A stretch of 64,000 bases of DNA from Escherichia coli (GTDB lineage Bacteria; Pseudomonadota; Gammaproteobacteria; Enterobacterales; Enterobacteriaceae): NCBI RefSeq assembly GCF_030013205.1, contig NZ_CP122648.1. The stretch is one strand, 5' to 3'. Position 1 is the first letter of the stretch; every line of letters begins with the position of its first letter. This document shows positions 9,581 through 63,561 of the stretch, piece after piece. The notes under the pieces were generated by a model. That model did no database searches, had not been told where the DNA came from, and was given only the letters and a program-made list of their open reading frames with translations. The translations under genes were made by a program, and so were the position numbers.

Positions 9581-10540
9581 ATGAAAATTTGTATCGACGA
9601 CGGCTCCACCAACATCAAGCTGGCATGGACTGAGAACGGCGAACGCCGCAACGCCATCAGCCCGAACAGCTTCAAGTCGGAATGGTCTGCGCCGTTCGGT
9701 GGCTCGCAGCCTGCGAACTACATGCTTGATGGCGTGCGCTATGGTTTTGATCCGGTCAGCGATCGCTTTGTCCAGACGACCGACACGCAATACCAGTACA
9801 GCGATGTGAATGTCATTGCCATTCATCACGCGCTGGTCAAATCAGGCATCACGCCTCAGGAGGTGGATGTGGTTGTCACCCTGCCACTGAGCGAGTATTT
9901 CGACACAAACGCACAGCCAGACATGGCCAACATCAACCGCAAAAAAGCGAACGTTATGCGCCCGGTGGAGTACCAGAACGGCGAAGCATTCACTATCCGT
10001 AACGTGCGGGTTATGCCTGAATCCATTCCGGCTGGTTTTAAGGCACTGGCTGACATGAGTCCGTTTGAATCCCTGCTGATTGTGGATTTGGGCGGAACCA
10101 CGCTGGATGTGGCAAAGGTTCAGGGGCAACTGGCAGGTATCAGCCAGGTGTTTTGCGATCCACACGTAGGCGTTTCTCTGATGGCTGATGCCGTGCTGTC
10201 GGTGATGGCCACTAACGGTATGCGTACCAGTCACCACATCGCCAATACCATTATTGAGCACCGTCACGATGAAGCCTGGCTACGCCAGCACATTCACAAT
10301 GACGCGCATTACAACAGCCTGATGGCGGTTATTCGTGAAAAGGAGGAAACACTGAAACAACGCGTGATCCGCGCGCTGGCGGGTTTTTCGGGTTACGGGC
10401 GGGTGATGGTTGTAGGTGGAGGAGCGGAGATTGTGGCACCCGCTATCCGCGAAGCCTGCGGAGTTAATGCGACTTTCATCGCGGACGGGGTGCCACAGTT
10501 TGCTCTGGTTAATGGGCTGTACGCAATGGACAAGGAGTAA
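9581..10540 (+). CDS. parM: ParM/StbA-like actin-family segregation ATPase
   Basis: MKICIDDGSTNIKLAW...ISPNSF...YSDVNVIAIHHAL...VMPESIPAG...IVDLGGTTLD...VGGGAEI...ALVNGLYAM tracks plasmid R1 ParM along its whole length (recalled alignment). Confidence 0.8.
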   Translation: MKICIDDGSTNIKLAWTENGERRNAISPNSFKSEWSAPFGGSQPANYMLDGVRYGFDPVSDRFVQTTDTQYQYSDVNVIAIHHALVKSGITPQEVDVVVTLPLSEYFDTNAQPDMANINRKKANVMRPVEYQNGEAFTIRNVRVMPESIPAGFKALADMSPFESLLIVDLGGTTLDVAKVQGQLAGISQVFCDPHVGVSLMADAVLSVMATNGMRTSHHIANTIIEHRHDEAWLRQHIHNDAHYNSLMAVIREKEETLKQRVIRALAGFSGYGRVMVVGGGAEIVAPAIREACGVNATFIADGVPQFALVNGLYAMDKE

Positions 10541-10544
10541 ATCA

Positions 10545-10859
10545 ATGACGACACCAACCAGACGGATAAGTTTCTATCTGAAGCCCGCCGTCGTCAAGAG
10601 CGAACGGGAGGCGTGCAGTTACCTCGACAGCCTGCCAGCCTCCGAACGCAGCCGCGCACAACGCGCGGCTTTTCTGGCCGGACTGGCTCTTATAAAACGC
10701 ATCCCCGCGTTGGCGTATTCGCTGGCAGAATGGTCAGAAGACGAAATAAGGATGCCACCGCTACCAGTACAGCCTGAAAAACCGGCGAAACCAGCAGCAG
10801 ACAGCGCCCCCCATATGCAGCAGGTGAAGAAGAATATTCAGGCGTTTTTTCCGAAGTGA
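10545..10859 (+). CDS. parR: ParR-like centromere-binding adaptor (putative)
   Basis: RRISFYLKPAVVKSEREACSYLDSLPASERSRAQRAAFLAGLALIKR resembles the R1 ParR N-terminal DNA-binding region; immediately downstream of parM. Confidence 0.6.
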   Translation: MTTPTRRISFYLKPAVVKSEREACSYLDSLPASERSRAQRAAFLAGLALIKRIPALAYSLAEWSEDEIRMPPLPVQPEKPAKPAADSAPHMQQVKKNIQAFFPK

Positions 10860-19398: not shown

Positions 19399-20547
19399 AT
19401 GACTTGGCCATCTGTCACGATTGAACAGTACAACACATTCAGCAGTTCACCGGACGGCGTGGAAAATACACTGCTGTTTGTGGGCAACGCACAAAACAAC
19501 AAAGGTAAGGTTCTGCCGGTTAACGCTAACAGCGATCTGGATGAACTGCTGGGAACAAACGCCAGCCCACTGAAGAATTTCCTTCAGTCCGCACTGACCA
19601 ATGCCGGACAAAATGCCTTTTTCTATGTTGCCATTCTGCCGGAAGCAGGCAAAGGCAAAGAAGCGACGCCAGCCTGCCAGGCATGGCAGAACGCCATACT
19701 GGCCGCTCAGGAAACTGTTTCAGTGGAAGGCGTGGTGATCACCGAACCGGTCAGCACGAAGGATGACATCAACGCCATACAGGCGTTACGTCAGACCATC
19801 ATCAATAAATATCAGCGCCGCATCTGGTTCATCCTGACCATCGCCGCCAACGACGGCAGTAAAACCTGGGCGGACTACGTTGCCGAACTGACCACGCTAC
19901 AGAAAGGTATTGCAGCCCCGCAAATCATGCTGGTTCCGGAAATTTTTGGCTTTGAACCGGGCGTTCTCGCCGGCCGTCTGTGTAACAGCGCCGTCACCAT
20001 TGCTGACAGTCCGGCGCGTGTGGCAACCGGGGCGCTGTCCGCACTGAAAACCACAGAGCGCCCGAAGGACAGCGCAGGGCAGGCAATTGATCTCGCCACC
20101 CTGCAGGCGCTGGCAACCGCCCGCTACAGCGTGCCCATGTGGTATGCCGACTATGACGGCCTTTACTGGGCCGATGGTGTGACACTTGAGGTGGAAGGCG
20201 GGGACTACAACGTCATTGAGCATGTCCGCATTGCTGACAAGGTGGCACGCCGCGTGCGGCTGATGGCCATCCCCAAAATTGCCGACCGCTCGCTGAACAG
20301 CACGCCGGGTAGCATTGCCGCACATGAAACGCTGTTTGCCCGCCCACTGCGTGCCATGGCGAAATCCACGCAAATTAACGGCATCACGTTTCCGGGCGAA
20401 GTGAAATCCCCCCAGAAAGGCGACGTGGTTATCACCTGGCAGGACGAAAAGACGGTCAGCATCAGCATTGTCGTCCGCCCTTACGCCTGCCCCAAAACCA
20501 TTAAGGTGGGCATTCAGCTGGATAAATCTCTGGAGGAGAACGCATGA
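19399..20547 (+). CDS. Tail sheath protein (putative)
   Basis: 382 aa, immediately upstream of a small tube-like protein, chaperone and tape measure. Confidence 0.5.
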   Translation: MTWPSVTIEQYNTFSSSPDGVENTLLFVGNAQNNKGKVLPVNANSDLDELLGTNASPLKNFLQSALTNAGQNAFFYVAILPEAGKGKEATPACQAWQNAILAAQETVSVEGVVITEPVSTKDDINAIQALRQTIINKYQRRIWFILTIAANDGSKTWADYVAELTTLQKGIAAPQIMLVPEIFGFEPGVLAGRLCNSAVTIADSPARVATGALSALKTTERPKDSAGQAIDLATLQALATARYSVPMWYADYDGLYWADGVTLEVEGGDYNVIEHVRIADKVARRVRLMAIPKIADRSLNSTPGSIAAHETLFARPLRAMAKSTQINGITFPGEVKSPQKGDVVITWQDEKTVSISIVVRPYACPKTIKVGIQLDKSLEENA

Positions 20548-20999
20548 CGACCCGCATTAACGGCATGGCCTTTGACGTTTATATCGGCGGAACGGATATC
20601 CACGTGAAAAACATTTCACTGGACATCAGCGATGAAAGCGCCGTTGCCAAAACCCGTGGCATCCCTGACGGCAAACTGCGCGGCCCTGTCAGTGCCGAAG
20701 GTGAAATTGAAATGAGTACCCGCAGCTTTAACCAACTCGGGGAAGTGGCTGCTCAGGCGGGATCGTGGCGCGATCTGCCGCCCATGGATTTTGTGTTTTA
20801 CGCCAATACGGGCACCGAAGAAATCCGCGTTGAAGCCTTCGGTTGCGAGCTGATGCTTTCCGGCCTGTTAAGCATTGACACCGAGAGCACAGATCTGACC
20901 ACGCACAAAATCAAGTACGTGGTGGCAAGCCCTGACTTTGTGCGTATCAACGGCGTGCCCGTTCTCTCAGAGAACGACGTGCGCGGACTGATGGGGTGA
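20544..20999 (+). CDS. Tail tube protein (putative)
   Basis: 151 aa, overlapping the sheath stop. Confidence 0.5.
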   Translation: MTTRINGMAFDVYIGGTDIHVKNISLDISDESAVAKTRGIPDGKLRGPVSAEGEIEMSTRSFNQLGEVAAQAGSWRDLPPMDFVFYANTGTEEIRVEAFGCELMLSGLLSIDTESTDLTTHKIKYVVASPDFVRINGVPVLSENDVRGLMG

Positions 21000-21750: not shown

Positions 21751-21814
21751 TTTTACGCTTAATAAGCCTTCCTGCAGGCTTATTAAGCCCTCTTATTCTT
21801 GACTTTAAAAGGAA

Positions 21815-22108
21815 ATGATGATGAACGATAAAAACACCCAGACTACCGCAGAGAACACCATCACTTTACAGGTCGGCGAGCATGAACTGACGTTTATCCC
21901 GACCGTAAAAGCCTACAACGACCTGCAGAACGACTTCATGCCGGATAACAAAATCGCGCCGCTGAAAAACTACCTGCGCCGTATCGTGATTAAAGAGCAC
22001 CGCGATCTGCTTAACCAGTTGCTGGAAAAACCAGGAATGCCGGCCAGCCTGGCAACAGCCGTGAATAACGAGTTTGTGCCGGAAGTGGAAATCACCGTAA
22101 AAAAATAA
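21815..22108 (+). CDS. Tail assembly chaperone (short product; a -1 frameshift would extend it to 22296)
   Basis: Immediately upstream of the tape measure gene; ends in the slippery A_AAA_AAA plus stop. Confidence 0.5.
   Translation: MMMNDKNTQTTAENTITLQVGEHELTFIPTVKAYNDLQNDFMPDNKIAPLKNYLRRIVIKEHRDLLNQLLEKPGMPASLATAVNNEFVPEVEITVKK
22099..22105 (+). other. A_AAA_AAA slippery heptamer for programmed -1 ribosomal frameshift
   Basis: Seven A in X_XXY_YYZ register followed by the 0-frame stop; the -1 frame stays open to the TAA at 22294-22296, abutting the tape measure ATG. Confidence 0.5.
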
Positions 22109-22295
22109 AAAGCCATCTGGGGGCCATTGATCGCAATGACCTTACCCGGATGCTGATTCTGCGCCGCCACTGGCTGCCCGGCGAGGATGACTCGCCGCAG
22201 TCACTGGCTGCCGCCGTCTGGCTGGATAACCACTACTGGGAAAATATGAGCATCGCCGTCAATAACGGCATTATCCGTGCTTTTAAGGGATCGTA

Positions 22296-24470
22296 ATGTC
22301 ACAACAGCGCCTTGAATTACTTCTTGAACTGACAGACCGCCTGACAAGGCCGTTGCGTGCAGCCGGGCGACAGGTTCAGGGATTTGCTGCAACAAGTCGG
22401 GGAGCCTTTCGGGACATTGCTACCGGAGGCGCTGCACTCTGGGGAGTGGGTGCAGCCATTCAGGGTGCACTGATGCCAGCCATTGAAATGGACAGGGCGC
22501 TCGGTGAGGTAAAATCACTGGGCGTCGCAGAGTCCGGACTGCGAAAACTCAGCCGCGCCGCCGTTGATTTCACTATGGAATACGGCGGGGCTGCGCAGGA
22601 TTTTGTGCGTGCTTCTTACGACATCCAGTCAGCCATTGCCGGCTTAACTGACGATGAGCTGTCCCGCTTCACCACCGCATCAGCAACGGTGGCAGCAGCA
22701 ACCAAATCCAGCAGCCAGACCATTACCGCCTACATGGGCACCATGTACGGCATCTTTAAAGACCAGGCTGATGCCATGGGAAAAAGCAAATGGGTGGAGC
22801 AGGTCGCCGGGCAAACCGCCACCGCCGTGCAAATGTTTAAAACCACCGGCGATAACATGTCAGCAGCGTTCACCACGCTGGGTGCCAGCGCAAAAGCGGC
22901 AGGTATTGATGCGGCTGAACAGTTCGCCGTGCTGGGACAACTGCAGGCCACCATGAGTGGCAGCGAGGCCGGGACAAAGTACAAGGCATTTCTTGCCGCA
23001 GTAGGCAGCGCCCAGAAAAAGCTGGGGCTTAATTTCGTGAATAAAGACGGCACCATGAAAAGTGTTGTCGAGATCATGAAACTTATCAGGGGCAAATTTG
23101 GTGATCTGTCAAAAGTAGCTGATTCCGATTTGTTGAAAAGCGCCTTTGGCTCCGATGAAGCTGTGGCCATGATTAAATTACTCAATGCGAATATTGACGG
23201 ACTTGAAAAGAACATCAACACGCTGGGCAATATCAAAGGTATGGATAAGGCTGTCGAAATGGCGCAGGCCATGGCTGATCCATGGGAACAGGCCGCCGCA
23301 ATTATTAACGGCATTCGCATTGAAATTGGCACACAGTTGTTGCCCGTTCTGTACCCGTTCATCCAGAAAAGCAACGAAGGCGGCAAATCCTTTGTTGCCT
23401 GGTTACGTCTGTATCCAAACATCACGCGCGCAATTGGTTTACTGGCGGGGACTTTTCTTAGCCTCGCAACCGTTGGCGCTCTCAGCAATATCATCATGGG
23501 ACTGTTCAGCTTTGTAACAAAAGGGCTGATTGCCCCCGTAACAGGCTTAATAAAGCTTCTCAGGTTAAGCGCATTGCGAAATACACTGGCCGCTGCTGCA
23601 ACAGGGGCTTATGCCGCTGCACAACAATATCTGAACAGGGTCATGCTGGTTTCAATGCTGACAGGACGCGGCTTTCTTACCACCATGCTGATGATGAGCG
23701 GGCCCATTCTGCTTATTGGTGCAGCCATTGCAGCAGTTGTTGCTCTTGTCTGGAAATTCTGGGAACCCATCAAAGCGTTTTTCAGCGGATTCATTCAGGG
23801 GTTCAGCGATGCATGGAAGACTATTTCACTTGGCTCTCCCATTCTGGCCGATATCGGCGCTGTTTTTGGTTTTGTATGGGATGCCATCAAAACAGCATTT
23901 AACTGGCTGATGAATTTACTCACACCGGTAGAACTGACGGGCGAAGCGTTCGGACGCGCCAGCGATGCCGGTGCGTCTTTTGGCCGTATCGTTGCCACAG
24001 CAATCAACTGGATCCTGACGCCAACTGAAATCATGCTCGGACTGTTATCAAAAGTGTGGCAGGCCCTGCTCATTATTCTGCAGGGGTATAAGGATATCTG
24101 GAACAGCCTGGATATTACTCACCCTCTGGATTCACTGAAAAATCTGGCTTCCGGGATCCTGGCTATTTTCAGCAACCTCTGGGAACTGGTGAAACAGTCC
24201 TTCAGTGATTCATGGGGCTGGATTGTGGACAAACTCAACATGATCCCCGGCGTTAACATCGGCACATCAGAAAGCACAGGAAGTGGCGAAGGTTCCGTAT
24301 TAACCGGCGGTAAAGCTATCAGCGCAGGGCCGGGTGGCATTGCGGCAGAGATGCAGAGCAACAGCGAAAACCAGACCACAATCGACAACTCCCGTCGTGT
24401 GGTCAACGTTAACGTACAGGATCCCTCCCCAGCCCGTCTTAACGAGTGGATGGAGCTACATGCATACTGA
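22296..24470 (+). CDS. Tail tape measure protein
   Basis: 724 aa, Ala/Gly-rich with hydrophobic central segments, directly after the frameshifted chaperone. Confidence 0.8.
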   Translation: MSQQRLELLLELTDRLTRPLRAAGRQVQGFAATSRGAFRDIATGGAALWGVGAAIQGALMPAIEMDRALGEVKSLGVAESGLRKLSRAAVDFTMEYGGAAQDFVRASYDIQSAIAGLTDDELSRFTTASATVAAATKSSSQTITAYMGTMYGIFKDQADAMGKSKWVEQVAGQTATAVQMFKTTGDNMSAAFTTLGASAKAAGIDAAEQFAVLGQLQATMSGSEAGTKYKAFLAAVGSAQKKLGLNFVNKDGTMKSVVEIMKLIRGKFGDLSKVADSDLLKSAFGSDEAVAMIKLLNANIDGLEKNINTLGNIKGMDKAVEMAQAMADPWEQAAAIINGIRIEIGTQLLPVLYPFIQKSNEGGKSFVAWLRLYPNITRAIGLLAGTFLSLATVGALSNIIMGLFSFVTKGLIAPVTGLIKLLRLSALRNTLAAAATGAYAAAQQYLNRVMLVSMLTGRGFLTTMLMMSGPILLIGAAIAAVVALVWKFWEPIKAFFSGFIQGFSDAWKTISLGSPILADIGAVFGFVWDAIKTAFNWLMNLLTPVELTGEAFGRASDAGASFGRIVATAINWILTPTEIMLGLLSKVWQALLIILQGYKDIWNSLDITHPLDSLKNLASGILAIFSNLWELVKQSFSDSWGWIVDKLNMIPGVNIGTSESTGSGEGSVLTGGKAISAGPGGIAAEMQSNSENQTTIDNSRRVVNVNVQDPSPARLNEWMELHAY

Positions 24471-34749: not shown

Positions 34750-34890
34750 ATGTCGCAAAAATCGCTTACGGCCATCACGTTCTGCGTGACGGTAATCCTC
34801 ATCATCTGGATGCTGCACGGCTCGCTGTGTGAAATACGGATGAGCTTCTGGGGAGCGGAGTTTGCGGCGTTCTTACAGTGTAAACAGTAA
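34750..34890 (+). CDS. Hok/Gef-family type I toxin (46 aa)
   Basis: MSQKSLTAITFCVTVILIIWMLHGSLCEIRMSFWGAEFAAFLQCKQ carries the Hok/Gef SLCEIR...AAF signature; long structured leader upstream; below the ORF-track cutoff. Confidence 0.65.
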   Translation: MSQKSLTAITFCVTVILIIWMLHGSLCEIRMSFWGAEFAAFLQCKQ

Positions 34891-58827: not shown

Positions 58828-59709
58828 ATGGATCTGCGCCGTTTTATTACGCTTAAAACCGTGGTGGAAGAGGGTTCCTTTTTGCGAGCTTCGCAAAAAT
58901 TGTGCTGCACACAATCGACGGTGACTTTTCATATTCAGCAGCTTGAGCAGGAGTTCTCAGTCCAGTTATTTGAGAAAATTGGTCGACGAATGTGCCTTAC
59001 CCGCGAAGGAAAAAAGCTGCTGCCGCACATTTATGAACTCACCAGAGTGATGGATACCCTTCGTGAGGCTGCCAAAAAAGAGTCGGATCCGGACGGGGAA
59101 CTACGCGTTGTTTCAGGCGAAACGTTGCTTTCTTACCGAATGCCGCAGGTGTTGCAGCGTTTTCGGCAACGCGCACCAAAAGTGCGTTTATCGTTGCAGT
59201 CTCTGAACTGTTACGTGATCCGTGATGCGCTACTGAATGATGAGGCTGATGTCGGCGTCTTTTACCGCGTAGGGAATGATGATGCTCTAAACCGACGAGA
59301 ATTGGGTGAGCAATCGCTGGTGCTGGTAGCTTCACCGCAAATTGCAGATGTCGATTTTACTGAGCCGGGAAGACATAACGCCTGTAGCTTTATTATCAAC
59401 GAACCGCAATGTGTATTCCGGCAGATATTTGAGAGCACGCTGCGCCAGCGGCGGATCACGGTGGAAAACACCATTGAGCTGTTAAGCATTGAAAGTATCA
59501 AACGTTGTGTCGCGGCGAATATCGGGGTCAGCTACCTGCCGCGCTTTGCGGTAGCAAAAGAATTGGCGAGCGGCGAGTTAATCGAATTGCCTTTTGGCGA
59601 ACAGTCGCAGACGATTACAGCAATGTGCGCACACCATGCTGGAAAAGCGGTTAGCCCGGCGATGCACACTTTTATTCAGTGTGTTGAAGAGTGTTTTTTG
59701 CCGGGATAA
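58828..59709 (+). CDS. yfiE: LysR-family transcriptional regulator YfiE
   Basis: MDLRRFITLKTVVEEGSFLRASQKLCCTQSTVTFHIQQLEQEF... HTH; start at internal Met of ORF 58783..59709. Confidence 0.85.
   Translation: MDLRRFITLKTVVEEGSFLRASQKLCCTQSTVTFHIQQLEQEFSVQLFEKIGRRMCLTREGKKLLPHIYELTRVMDTLREAAKKESDPDGELRVVSGETLLSYRMPQVLQRFRQRAPKVRLSLQSLNCYVIRDALLNDEADVGVFYRVGNDDALNRRELGEQSLVLVASPQIADVDFTEPGRHNACSFIINEPQCVFRQIFESTLRQRRITVENTIELLSIESIKRCVAANIGVSYLPRFAVAKELASGELIELPFGEQSQTITAMCAHHAGKAVSPAMHTFIQCVEECFLPG

Positions 59710-61207: not shown

Positions 61208-63561
<2,354 letters not shown>

What the first reader, a model, noticed from the sequence alone, without database searches (positions are those of the whole stretch)
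22096..22296. Programmed -1 frameshift site (A_AAA_AAA) in the tail assembly chaperone
The chaperone ORF ends ...GTA AAA AAA TAA. The seven-A run is in X_XXY_YYZ register, and the -1 frame is open for a further 62 codons to the TAA at 22294-22296 that overlaps the tape measure ATG. This reproduces the conserved G/GT (lambda) and E/E' (P2) expression strategy.
Basis: seen in the sequence. Interest (0 to 1): 0.4.

Follow-up and report, generated by a model that had tools for sequence, protein, structure and literature searches.

The report
Tail-chaperone -1 ribosomal frameshift site
A run of seven A's at the end of a prophage tail-assembly chaperone gene very probably lets some ribosomes slip back one base and add a 63-residue tail, now annotated as a separate 'DUF6890' gene; this is the two-proteins-from-one-gene trick known from phages lambda and P2, so it is an ordinary case that databases have not annotated.

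Summary
The Phage_TAC_10 chaperone ORF (21821/21815-22108) ends GTA AAA AAA TAA. A7 (22099-22105) is in X_XXY_YYZ register. The -1 frame is open for 63 codons to TAA 22294-22296, which overlaps the tape-measure ATG.

- In 89 of 91 related loci (HP1, K139, phiO18P, ESSI-2 and others; 27 clusters at 90% nt identity) the extension lies in the -1 frame.
- All 89 keep an in-register A_AAA_AAN heptamer: AAC in 19 clusters, AAA in 6, AAG in 2.
- T-AAAAAA is the only long invariant run in the nucleotide alignment.
- Protein-coding constraint in the -1 frame begins at the first codon after the heptamer.
- 10 of 27 lineages have no start codon for the extension.
- The window's ATG 22150 has no Shine-Dalgarno sequence and sits inside a hairpin.

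All 12 annotated public records I opened (one RefSeq E. coli genome, 11 phages) either split the region into two genes or leave a gap. Pfam calls the extension DUF6890 and PHROGs calls it 'unknown function'.

One feature specific to this clade: in 25 of 27 clusters the 0-frame stop directly abuts the heptamer, held there by rare CTA/ATA codons. This suggests a 'shifty stop' stimulator. A hairpin (22111-22154, -19.5 kcal/mol) may also help in this lineage.

Verdict: a real feature, a new member of a known kind, of modest interest.

The parts
21821..22108 (+). Tail assembly chaperone ORF in the 0 frame. It is 95 aa from ATG 21821, with alternative ATGs at 21815 and 21818.
   Evidence: Pfam Phage_TAC_10 E 1.6e-26, full-length match. 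RefSeq annotates it as 'putative phage tail assembly chaperone'. The AlphaFold model of residues 16-87 matches PDB 3fgx and BFVD proteins named tail assembly chaperone.
22099..22105 (+). Slippery heptamer A_AAA_AAA. The P-site codon is AAA 22100-02 and the A-site codon is AAA 22103-05.
   Evidence: A_AAA_AAN sits at the homologous position in 89 of 89 loci whose extension is in the -1 frame, and in 27 of 27 clusters. Positions -1 to +5 are the only run of 7 invariant columns in 216 aligned columns.
22106..22108 (+). 0-frame stop TAA directly abutting the heptamer. It is a candidate 'shifty stop' stimulator.
   Evidence: The stop is adjacent in 25 of 27 clusters. It is maintained by rare first codons in the -1 frame: CTA in 12 of 19 Leu cases (4.9% elsewhere) and ATA in 6 of 6 Ile cases (4.4% elsewhere).
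22105..22296 (+). -1 frame extension of 63 codons plus TAA. Residues 19-62 are Pfam DUF6890. The fusion product would be 158 aa (160 aa from ATG 21815).
   Evidence: DUF6890 E 8e-24. The 27 representatives align without gaps from the first codon. Codon-position entropy is 0.94/0.91/1.49 in the 15-codon linker. The model shows three helices with pLDDT 95-97.
22111..22154 (+). Irregular hairpin of 17 base pairs, starting 5 nt 3' of the heptamer. It is a possible lineage-specific stimulator.
   Evidence: dG -19.5 kcal/mol, z -2.86, and 2 of 200 shuffles fold as well. The family-wide trend is mean z -1.18 against -0.03 for controls, but there is no consensus structure and the hairpin is weakened in some close relatives.
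22150..22152 (+). ATG used by RefSeq as the start of a separate 'DUF6890 family protein' (22150-22296). It is probably not a genuine start.
   Evidence: There is no SD-like motif in the 15 nt upstream, and the ATG is not conserved: relatives have Y/F/A/V/L at this position, and 10 of 27 have no start codon at all. It lies in the 3' arm of the hairpin. The conserved residues I105, N108 and Q112 lie upstream of it.
22296..24470 (+). Tail tape measure protein gene. Its ATG overlaps the stop of the extension (TAATG).
   Evidence: Pfam PhageMin_Tail E 8e-29. In all 27 representatives the tape-measure ATG lies -4 to +14 nt from the end of the extension ORF.
19399..20999 (+). Context: tail sheath gene (DUF2586, 19399-20547) and tail tube gene (Phage_HP1_Orf24, 20544-20999), followed by holin and M15 endolysin genes before the chaperone. 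This is the HP1-type gene order.

Best explanation
This is a programmed -1 ribosomal frameshift in the tail assembly chaperone gene of an HP1-like (Peduoviridae, ESSI-2/Evevirus-related) prophage of E. coli. Most ribosomes terminate at TAA 22106 and make the 95-aa chaperone. A minority slip back one base on A_AAA_AAA (22099-22105), read ATA at 22105, and continue for 63 codons to TAA 22294. That gives a 158-aa fusion of chaperone and DUF6890 (...EITVKK-IKSHLGAIDRNDLTRMLILRRHWLP...). The following is inferred by analogy with lambda G/GT and P2 E/E+E', not shown here. The shared N-terminal domain coats the tape-measure protein. The rarer -1-encoded domain recruits the tail tube protein. The fixed ratio of the two products is set by slip efficiency. 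Likely stimulators, also inferred, are the 0-frame stop codon immediately 3' of the heptamer and, in this lineage, the hairpin at 22111-22154.
For: Anatomy:
- Searches give the sequence and frames.
- The chaperone matches Phage_TAC_10 (1.6e-26), the extension matches DUF6890 (8e-24), and the next gene is PhageMin_Tail.

Comparative evidence:
- 76 phage records hold both halves as two tblastn pieces.
- In 12 loci read by eye, (G/C)TA AAA AAN is conserved and the -1 frame stays open to the tape-measure start.
- Across 91 loci the extension is in the -1 frame in 89, all with an in-register A_AAA_AAN. The two exceptions are single-base indels.
- The 27 clusters split as AAAAAAC 19, AAAAAAA 6, AAAAAAG 2. 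The preceding codon is NTA although its amino acid varies (V, L or I).
- T-AAAAAA is the only run of 7 invariant columns. GTA makes up only 15% of Val codons elsewhere, and AAA 67% of Lys codons.
- In the two Pseudomonas lineages the 0-frame stop lies 21 nt further on, yet the heptamer is kept at the same place.

Coding in the -1 frame starts at the heptamer:
- The alignment is gapless and third-position entropy is highest from codon 1.
- Near-invariant residues lie upstream of ATG 22150.
- 10 of 27 lineages have no ATG, GTG or TTG for the extension, and the window's ATG has no SD.
- In a library of 1.84 billion representatives, DUF6890 homologues are 25-81-aa fragments whose called N-termini fall at scattered profile positions (1-38). 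That is expected of an ORF with no start of its own.

Precedent and plausibility:
- The P2 record annotates exactly this architecture as a -1 frameshift.
- A_AAA_AAA gives 0.4% frameshifting in E. coli reporters without a stimulator and up to 25% with a strong one (Sharma et al. 2014, PMC4066793, Table S3).
- The roles of G and GT are taken from Atkins et al. 2016 (PMC5009743).
Against: - There is no experimental evidence for the fusion protein in this phage or in any member of the clade. Literature searches found none.
- A_AAA_AAC, the family's commonest heptamer, is a poor shifter in E. coli reporters at 0.16-0.74%.
- There is no family-wide conserved downstream structure (RNAalifold empty), no conserved upstream SD-like element and no Rfam match.
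- The window's hairpin is weakened by substitutions in some close relatives.
- The window does contain an in-frame ATG at 22150, so some independent initiation cannot be excluded.
- An A7 run could also support RNA polymerase slippage, which would give the same protein.
- The 27 clusters are not phylogenetically independent, so the quoted P values are indicative only.
Confidence: 0.9

Rival explanations
1. The downstream ORF is an independent small gene, the 'DUF6890 family protein' of 48 aa from ATG 22150, as RefSeq, Pfam and PHROGs treat it. It would be translated by its own initiation, or by reinitiation after termination at TAA 22106.
For: PGAP annotates it this way in E. coli genomes, and several phage records do likewise. 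The window has an ATG at codon 16 of the -1 ORF.
Against: The ATG has no SD and lies inside the hairpin. It is not conserved. 10 of 27 lineages have no start codon up to extension codon 22, and where starts exist they fall at different positions. Called N-termini are scattered over profile positions 1-38. Protein-level conservation and -1 frame codon periodicity begin 15 codons upstream of the ATG, directly at the heptamer. This reading does not explain the invariant in-register heptamer.
Confidence: 0.04
2. The fusion is made mainly by transcriptional slippage. RNA polymerase adds one extra A at the A7 run, and ordinary translation of the A8 mRNA then gives the identical fusion protein.
For: AAAAAAA is strongly under-represented in all three frames of E. 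coli genes, which Sharma et al. attribute partly to transcriptional slippage or indels. The product sequence would be the same (V-K-K-I-K...), so the genomic evidence for a fusion does not discriminate between the two routes.
Against: 21 of 27 clusters have only six A's (A6C or A6G), and none has more than seven. From my own knowledge, efficient bacterial RNAP slippage generally needs runs of about 8-9 or more. The run is held in strict X_XXY_YYZ register, with the X supplied by a constrained synonymous third base. Selection for a stop codon right after the run makes sense for ribosomal slippage but not for transcriptional slippage.
Confidence: 0.05
3. The arrangement is a coincidence. An A-rich Lys-Lys C-terminus happens to precede a non-functional open -1 frame.
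For: In-register heptamers and long open alternative frames do occur by chance in this window, for example T_TTT_TTG at 59694 at the end of a chromosomal LysR-type gene.
Against: The extension matches a Pfam family at 8e-24. It is conserved with coding periodicity across hosts from Haemophilus to Pseudomonas. Heptamer, frame relation and end-point at the tape-measure start are all kept.
Confidence: 0.01

Closest known systems
Phage P2 E / E+E' (-1 frameshift in the FETUD tail operon; Christie et al. 2002, cited from memory and via PMC5009743)
   Same: Both belong to the virus family Peduoviridae. Both have a chaperone ORF of about 90 aa directly upstream of the tape-measure gene, a -1 ORF of about 50-60 codons with no start of its own, and an extension that ends overlapping the tape-measure start. 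The sizes are comparable: 91/142 aa in P2, 95/158 aa here.
   Different: The slip site is T_TTT_TTG in P2 and A_AAA_AAA here. In P2 the 0-frame stop is 18 nt after the heptamer, and here it abuts it. There is no detectable sequence similarity (hhalign probability 0.07%). The Pfam families also differ: Phage_TAC_10 plus DUF6890 here, and no P2 family appears even at E<=10. A lysis cassette separates tube and chaperone here but not in P2. P2 is experimentally verified and this site is not.
Phage lambda G / GT
   Same: The expression logic is the same, and so presumably is the function. The chaperone binds the tape measure, the frameshift-encoded domain binds the tube protein, neither product is in the virion, and their ratio is fixed (about 30:1 in lambda; PMC5009743).
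   Different: Lambda has a non-contractile (siphovirus) tail, the heptamer G_GGA_AAG, and unrelated sequences.
IS1 insA-insB' frameshift on A_AAA_AAC
   Same: It uses the same heptamer as most of this clade (19 of 27 clusters). That heptamer is a proven bacterial frameshift site despite low intrinsic efficiency, and it has no established stimulator (PMC4066793).
   Different: It is a transposase rather than a phage tail gene, and no adjacent stop has been reported as part of the signal.
'Shifty stop' frameshifting (Weiss et al. 1987; Horsfield et al. 1995; both from memory, the first listed in PMC5009743)
   Same: A stop codon sits immediately 3' of a slippery run, so slow termination could favour a slip of the P-site tRNA.
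   Different: This has been shown only in synthetic or heterologous constructs and in +1 cases such as prfB. To my knowledge it is not an established part of any phage tail chaperone signal.

Membership tests
Tail assembly chaperone -1 programmed frameshift (lambda G/GT, P2 E/E+E' type) | The two ORFs lie between the tail tube gene and the tape-measure gene, with the second ending at the tape-measure start. | tested here: met
   The order is tube 20544-20999, holin, endolysin, chaperone, extension, tape measure 22296. The extension ends -4 to +14 nt from the tape-measure ATG in 27 of 27 clusters. The lysis genes inserted after the tube gene are the normal HP1-type order.
Tail assembly chaperone -1 programmed frameshift (lambda G/GT, P2 E/E+E' type) | The upstream ORF is a tail assembly chaperone. 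| tested here: met
   Pfam Phage_TAC_10 at 1.6e-26, and all 26 aligned members match it. Foldseek matches the model to 3fgx_A (probability 1.00, TM 0.67) and to BFVD entries named 'tail assembly chaperone'. E-values are weak (0.008-0.02).
Tail assembly chaperone -1 programmed frameshift (lambda G/GT, P2 E/E+E' type) | The second ORF is in the -1 frame, overlaps the end of the first, and lacks its own translation start. | tested here: met
   The extension is in the -1 frame in 89 of 91 loci. No start codon is present in 10 of 27 clusters, and ATG 22150 has no SD.
Tail assembly chaperone -1 programmed frameshift (lambda G/GT, P2 E/E+E' type) | An in-register X_XXY_YYZ slippery heptamer lies in the overlap and is conserved among relatives beyond what the protein sequence requires. 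| tested here: met
   A_AAA_AAN is present in 89 of 89 loci. The synonymous third positions are invariant.
Tail assembly chaperone -1 programmed frameshift (lambda G/GT, P2 E/E+E' type) | A frameshift fusion protein is produced at a defined low ratio and is required for tail assembly. | not testable with these tools
   This needs protein or genetic experiments. No published data were found.
Tail assembly chaperone -1 programmed frameshift (lambda G/GT, P2 E/E+E' type) | A stimulatory element (downstream structure or upstream SD-like sequence). This is not obligatory for the family. | tested here: inconclusive
   The window's hairpin has z -2.86 and the family mean z is -1.18. There is no consensus fold and no conserved SD. 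An adjacent stop is conserved in 25 of 27 clusters.
P2 gpE / gpE' protein families (sequence homologues of P2 E and E+E') | Detectable sequence similarity to P2 E+E'. | tested here: not met
   hhalign of the 12-sequence profile against P2 E+E' gives probability 0.07%. No P2-type Pfam family was hit by any of the 26 members at E<=10. So this site works like E/E+E' but is not a member of those protein families.
Pfam DUF6890 (PF21830) | A match above the gathering score. | tested here: met
   83.6 bits against a cut-off of 23.6. The model covers only extension residues 19-62, meaning it was built from ORFs called at internal start codons.

The most novel reading that the evidence does not exclude
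In HP1-like phages the conserved stimulator of the chaperone frameshift is the 0-frame stop codon placed immediately after a weak heptamer (A_AAA_AAC or A_AAA_AAA). On this reading the slip is termination-coupled, a P-site 'shifty stop' event, and does not depend on RNA structure. Lineages that lost the adjacent stop (the Pseudomonas phages) compensated by adopting the strongest bacterial heptamer, A_AAA_AAG. This would be a distinct mechanistic variant of the tail-chaperone frameshift signal. Support: the stop is adjacent in 25 of 27 clusters, held by otherwise rare CTA/ATA codons. A_AAA_AAC reaches only 0.16-0.74% in E. coli reporters even with strong structures. The only two clusters without an adjacent stop carry A_AAA_AAG, but they form a single clade.
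Probability: 0.35. Interest if true: 0.5.

Novelty: new member of a known kind. Interest (0 to 1): 0.3.

Why it matters
The main value is in annotation and interpretation. 'DUF6890' and phrog_7050 are very probably not standalone genes. They are the frameshift-encoded C-terminal domain of Phage_TAC_10 chaperones, the functional counterpart of lambda T and P2 E'. All 12 annotated records I opened, one RefSeq E. coli genome and 11 phages including the classical HP1 and K139, either split the region or leave an unannotated gap of about 190 nt. The region occurs in 41 of 5,426 complete E. coli genomes, and the feature names under the 20 hits that were listed show the same split there. Correct annotation matters for engineering P2/HP1-type tails and tailocins, and for benchmarking frameshift predictors. 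The strictly adjacent stop codon on a weak heptamer offers a natural, well-sampled test case for termination-coupled -1 frameshifting.

Tried and rejected
- **Literature.** I searched for an HP1-like chaperone frameshift, DUF6890 and Phage_TAC_10 and found nothing. Xu et al. 2004 and Christie et al. 2002 are not held, so I cannot check whether HP1 was already listed among their predicted sites. It may have been.
- **P2 E' profile.** I tried to build one to test remote homology with DUF6890. The locus scan returned only relatives 99-100% identical to P2, so only a single-sequence hhalign was possible, and it was negative. A motif resemblance (RRHWLPGED against IFHWPPSEL) remains unproven.
- **Family-wide RNA structure.** RNAalifold gave no consensus. 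Close relatives show no compensatory changes, and some weaken the hairpin.
- **Upstream SD-like stimulator.** It is present in only 4 of 27 clusters. Rfam gave no match.
- **Natural in-frame fusions of the two domains.** None was found among 91 loci or among 99 representative DUF6890 clusters. The apparent exceptions are not fusions: P0005 is a deletion, P0086 a chimera, and L175 a prophage remnant with a truncated chaperone and a degenerate GTA AAG GCA site.
- **Other in-register heptamers in the window.** T_TTT_TTG at 59694 and 61259 lie in chromosomal genes (yfiE/srmB region) and were dismissed as chance.
- **PDB sequence search.** It found nothing significant.
Full report
**1. The observation**

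I read the sequence directly. An ORF running from three consecutive ATGs (21815, 21818, 21821) to 22108 ends GTA AAA AAA TAA. ATG 21821 sits 7 nt after AGGA 21810-13 and is the start RefSeq uses. The A run occupies 22099-22105, so it is A_AAA_AAA in X_XXY_YYZ register. The -1 frame is free of stops from 22069 to 22293, and its stop, TAA 22294-22296, overlaps the ATG (22296) of a 724-aa ORF.

A -1 slip gives 63 further sense codons. The product is a 158-aa protein (160 aa from ATG 21815). The two frames are both open only over 22069-22105, and the A7 is the only in-register heptamer there.

Within the window's long ORFs, in-register heptamers occur about 62 times per 22,206 codons. Only about 9% of positions have a -1 frame open for 62 or more codons. 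The arrangement is therefore already unlikely by chance.

**2. What the genes are**

- The 0-frame ORF is a full-length match to Pfam Phage_TAC_10 (E 1.6e-26).
- The -1 extension matches DUF6890 (8e-24).
- The next gene is a tape-measure protein (PhageMin_Tail).
- Upstream lie sheath (DUF2586), tube (Phage_HP1_Orf24), holin and M15 endolysin genes.

The window is E. coli chromosome carrying a prophage of about 34 kb between pheA/pheL and raiA. Its relatives are the HP1-like Peduoviridae, including Cronobacter phage ESSI-2 and the Escherichia 'Evevirus' phages. The 701-bp region occurs in 41 of 5,426 complete E. coli genomes. In the genome record I opened it is annotated as two genes, 'putative phage tail assembly chaperone' and 'DUF6890 family protein' (22150-22296), with no slippage. 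The feature names under the other listed hits read the same. PHROGs lists both halves as 'unknown function'.

**3. Comparative test**

A tblastn search with the conceptual fusion found 76 phage records holding both halves as two pieces. They include Haemophilus HP1 and HP2, Vibrio K139 and Kappa, Aeromonas phiO18P, Pasteurella F108, Pseudomonas phi3, and Yersinia, Salmonella and Pseudoalteromonas phages. None of the 11 records I opened annotates a join. They either call a small second ORF or leave a gap of about 190 nt.

In all 11, (G/C)TA AAA AA[C/A/G] sits at the homologous place, the -1 frame is open from there to the tape-measure start, and the -1 peptide is conserved. The conceptual fusions align without a gap across the junction.

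Adding 80 IMG/VR loci gave the following.
- In 89 of 91 loci the extension is in the -1 frame, and every one of those has an in-register A_AAA_AAN.
- The two exceptions are single-base indels: one extra base after the stop, and A5 in place of A6.
- After clustering at 90% nt identity there are 27 clusters: AAAAAAC 19, AAAAAAA 6, AAAAAAG 2.
- The preceding codon is GTA (23), CTA (2) or ATA (2). Its amino acid varies but its third base does not.
- Over 216 gapless aligned columns, T-AAAAAA is the only run of seven invariant columns.
- Other third-codon positions carry 0.7-2.0 bits of entropy.
- Elsewhere in these genes GTA is only 15% of Val codons and AAA 67% of Lys codons.

In the two Pseudomonas clusters the 0-frame continues for seven more codons, yet the heptamer stays at the same site. 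What is conserved is therefore the slip site, not merely the C-terminus of the chaperone.

**4. Frameshift or separate gene?**

Codon-position entropy in the -1 frame is 0.94/0.91/1.49 for the 15 codons between the heptamer and the window's ATG 22150. This is the same pattern as further downstream (0.93/0.62/1.49), so coding starts at the heptamer. The near-invariant residues I105, N108 and Q112 lie upstream of that ATG.

Ten of 27 clusters have no ATG, GTG or TTG in the -1 frame up to extension codon 22. Where starts exist, they fall at different positions and mostly lack an SD. The window's ATG has none and lies in the 3' arm of a hairpin.

A profile search of 1.84 billion representative proteins found 99 DUF6890 clusters. 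Almost all are 25-81 aa, with called N-termini scattered over profile positions 1-38. This is the signature of an ORF without its own start. No natural in-frame fusion of chaperone and DUF6890 was found. Independent initiation is therefore not the conserved mode of expression.

**5. Mechanism**

The shown facts are the heptamer, the frame relation, the coding constraint and the synteny. I infer tandem or P-site -1 slippage of tRNA-Lys on A_AAA_AAA.

In E. coli reporters A_AAA_AAA gives 0.41% frameshifting without a stimulator, 0.82% with the IS911 elements and 24.8% with the IS3 pseudoknot. A_AAA_AAC gives only 0.16, 0.19 and 0.74%. A_AAA_AAG gives 0.29, 4.3 and 39% (PMC4066793, Table S3).

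There are two candidate stimulators.

(a) The 0-frame stop abuts the heptamer in 25 of 27 clusters. It is maintained by otherwise rare first codons in the new frame: CTA in 12 of 19 Leu cases against 4.9% elsewhere, and ATA in 6 of 6 Ile cases against 4.4% elsewhere. The binomial P values are 7e-12 and 7e-9, not corrected for phylogeny. All three stop codons are used. The two clusters without an adjacent stop carry A_AAA_AAG, the strongest heptamer. This fits 'shifty stop' slippage, which I cite from memory (Weiss 1987, Horsfield 1995). It rests on one clade of exceptions and is untested.

(b) A 17-bp irregular hairpin lies at 22111-22154, 5 nt after the heptamer. It has dG -19.5 kcal/mol and z -2.86. 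Across the family, the 50 nt downstream of the heptamer fold better than shuffles. Mean z is -1.18 against -0.03 for control windows (Mann-Whitney P 4.5e-4). However, there is no common structure, and some close relatives carry weakening substitutions.

No conserved upstream SD-like element exists, and no Rfam family matches.

Transcriptional slippage would yield the same protein. It is disfavoured as the main route because most lineages have only six A's, none has more than seven, the register is fixed, and the adjacent stop is selected. It may still contribute in this A7 lineage.

**6. Function (inferred)**

By analogy with lambda, G and the G part of GT bind the tape measure, and the T part binds the tube protein, at about 30:1. 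In P2, E+E' is made at a 2-3-fold higher rate than in lambda (PMC5009743). On that model the chaperone domain coats the tape-measure protein (22296-24470) and the DUF6890 domain recruits the tube protein (20544-20999).

An AlphaFold model of the fusion has mean pLDDT 84.5. It shows a beta-hairpin plus four-helix N-domain, a low-confidence linker at the slip site, and a confident three-helix C-domain with pLDDT 95-97. The N-domain matches PDB 3fgx_A (probability 1.00, TM 0.67) and BFVD proteins named tail assembly chaperone.

**7. Comparison with known systems**

The closest system is P2 E/E+E'. The P2 record annotates the join. Its heptamer is T_TTT_TTG, its 0-frame stop lies 18 nt downstream, and its extension ends overlapping gene T.

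The strategy and geometry are the same. The proteins are not detectably homologous (hhalign probability 0.07%, and no shared Pfam family). The slip site and the placement of the stop also differ. The site thus works like E/E+E' and G/GT, and it meets every sequence-level criterion of that recoding class. It is not a member of the P2 gpE protein families.

I could not read Xu et al. 2004 or Christie et al. 2002. HP1-type sites may already be listed there as predictions.

**8. Verdict**

This is a new, unannotated member of a well-known kind, so a specialist would not be surprised. Its value is as an annotation correction: DUF6890 and phrog_7050 are the frameshift domain of Phage_TAC_10 chaperones. 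It is also a clean natural case for testing stop-codon-assisted -1 frameshifting on weak heptamers.

Noticed in passing
window 21757-21788 (plus T-rich tail to about 21800): A perfect 13-bp hairpin followed by CCTCTTATTCTT, which looks like a terminator (dG -20.7, z -4.2). It lies in the 70-nt gap between the M15 endolysin stop (21750) and the chaperone start. Relatives (ESSI2_ev239, YenM_324, SI7) carry Rz/Rz1 spanin genes at this position, and this prophage has none annotated there. A terminator-like element in the middle of a tail operon is odd. It may be an attenuator, an RNA-stability element or a deletion scar.
   Followed up: partly
protein P0005 (Salmonella enterica serovar Montevideo, 96 aa): An in-frame deletion variant joins chaperone residues 1-54 (...NYLRR) directly to the extension (...RRHWLPGEDD...). 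It apparently arose by recombination between the YLRR and ILRR microhomologies of the two frames. It is probably a defective prophage.
   Followed up: partly
L032 about 1746-1760 and L054 about 1735-1745 (IMG/VR loci): These are the only two of 91 related loci that break the -1 relation. One has an extra base 8 nt after the stop, and the other has A5 instead of A6 in the slip site. They are either assembly errors or decaying prophages. Homopolymer indels at the slip site are exactly the expected failure mode.
   Followed up: partly
L175 1454-1746 (GCA_019740315.1 contig JAHXZR010000010.1): A prophage remnant in which a Com/D12-methyltransferase module abuts a chaperone truncated to its last ~35 codons. 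The slip site has degenerated to GTA AAG GCA TAA, while the DUF6890 ORF and the tape-measure gene are intact. An 81-85-aa -1 ORF with its own TTG or ATG is called there.
   Followed up: partly
window 22159-22185 (extension residues RRHWLPGED) against P2 E' residues 107-118: The only stretch that hhalign aligned between this fusion and P2 E+E' is LILRRHWLPGED against VAVIFHWPPSEL, at equivalent positions in the -1-encoded domains. It is not significant (probability 0.07%), but it may hint at very remote homology between DUF6890 and gpE'.
   Followed up: partly
window about 2046-36460: Prophage extent and cargo. The integrase lies next to pheL/pheA on the left and a Com-family regulator plus DNA methyltransferase lie next to raiA on the right. 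The prophage also carries ParM-like and partition genes (9581-10859) and a Hok/Gef toxin gene (34750-34890). A partition module is unusual for an integrated P2/HP1-like prophage.
   Followed up: no
window 59694-59700 and 61259-61265: In-register T_TTT_TTG heptamers (the P2 E/E' motif) with long open -1 frames occur in chromosomal genes of the yfiE/srmB region. I judged them chance occurrences. They show that a heptamer plus an open frame is not sufficient evidence on its own.
   Followed up: partly
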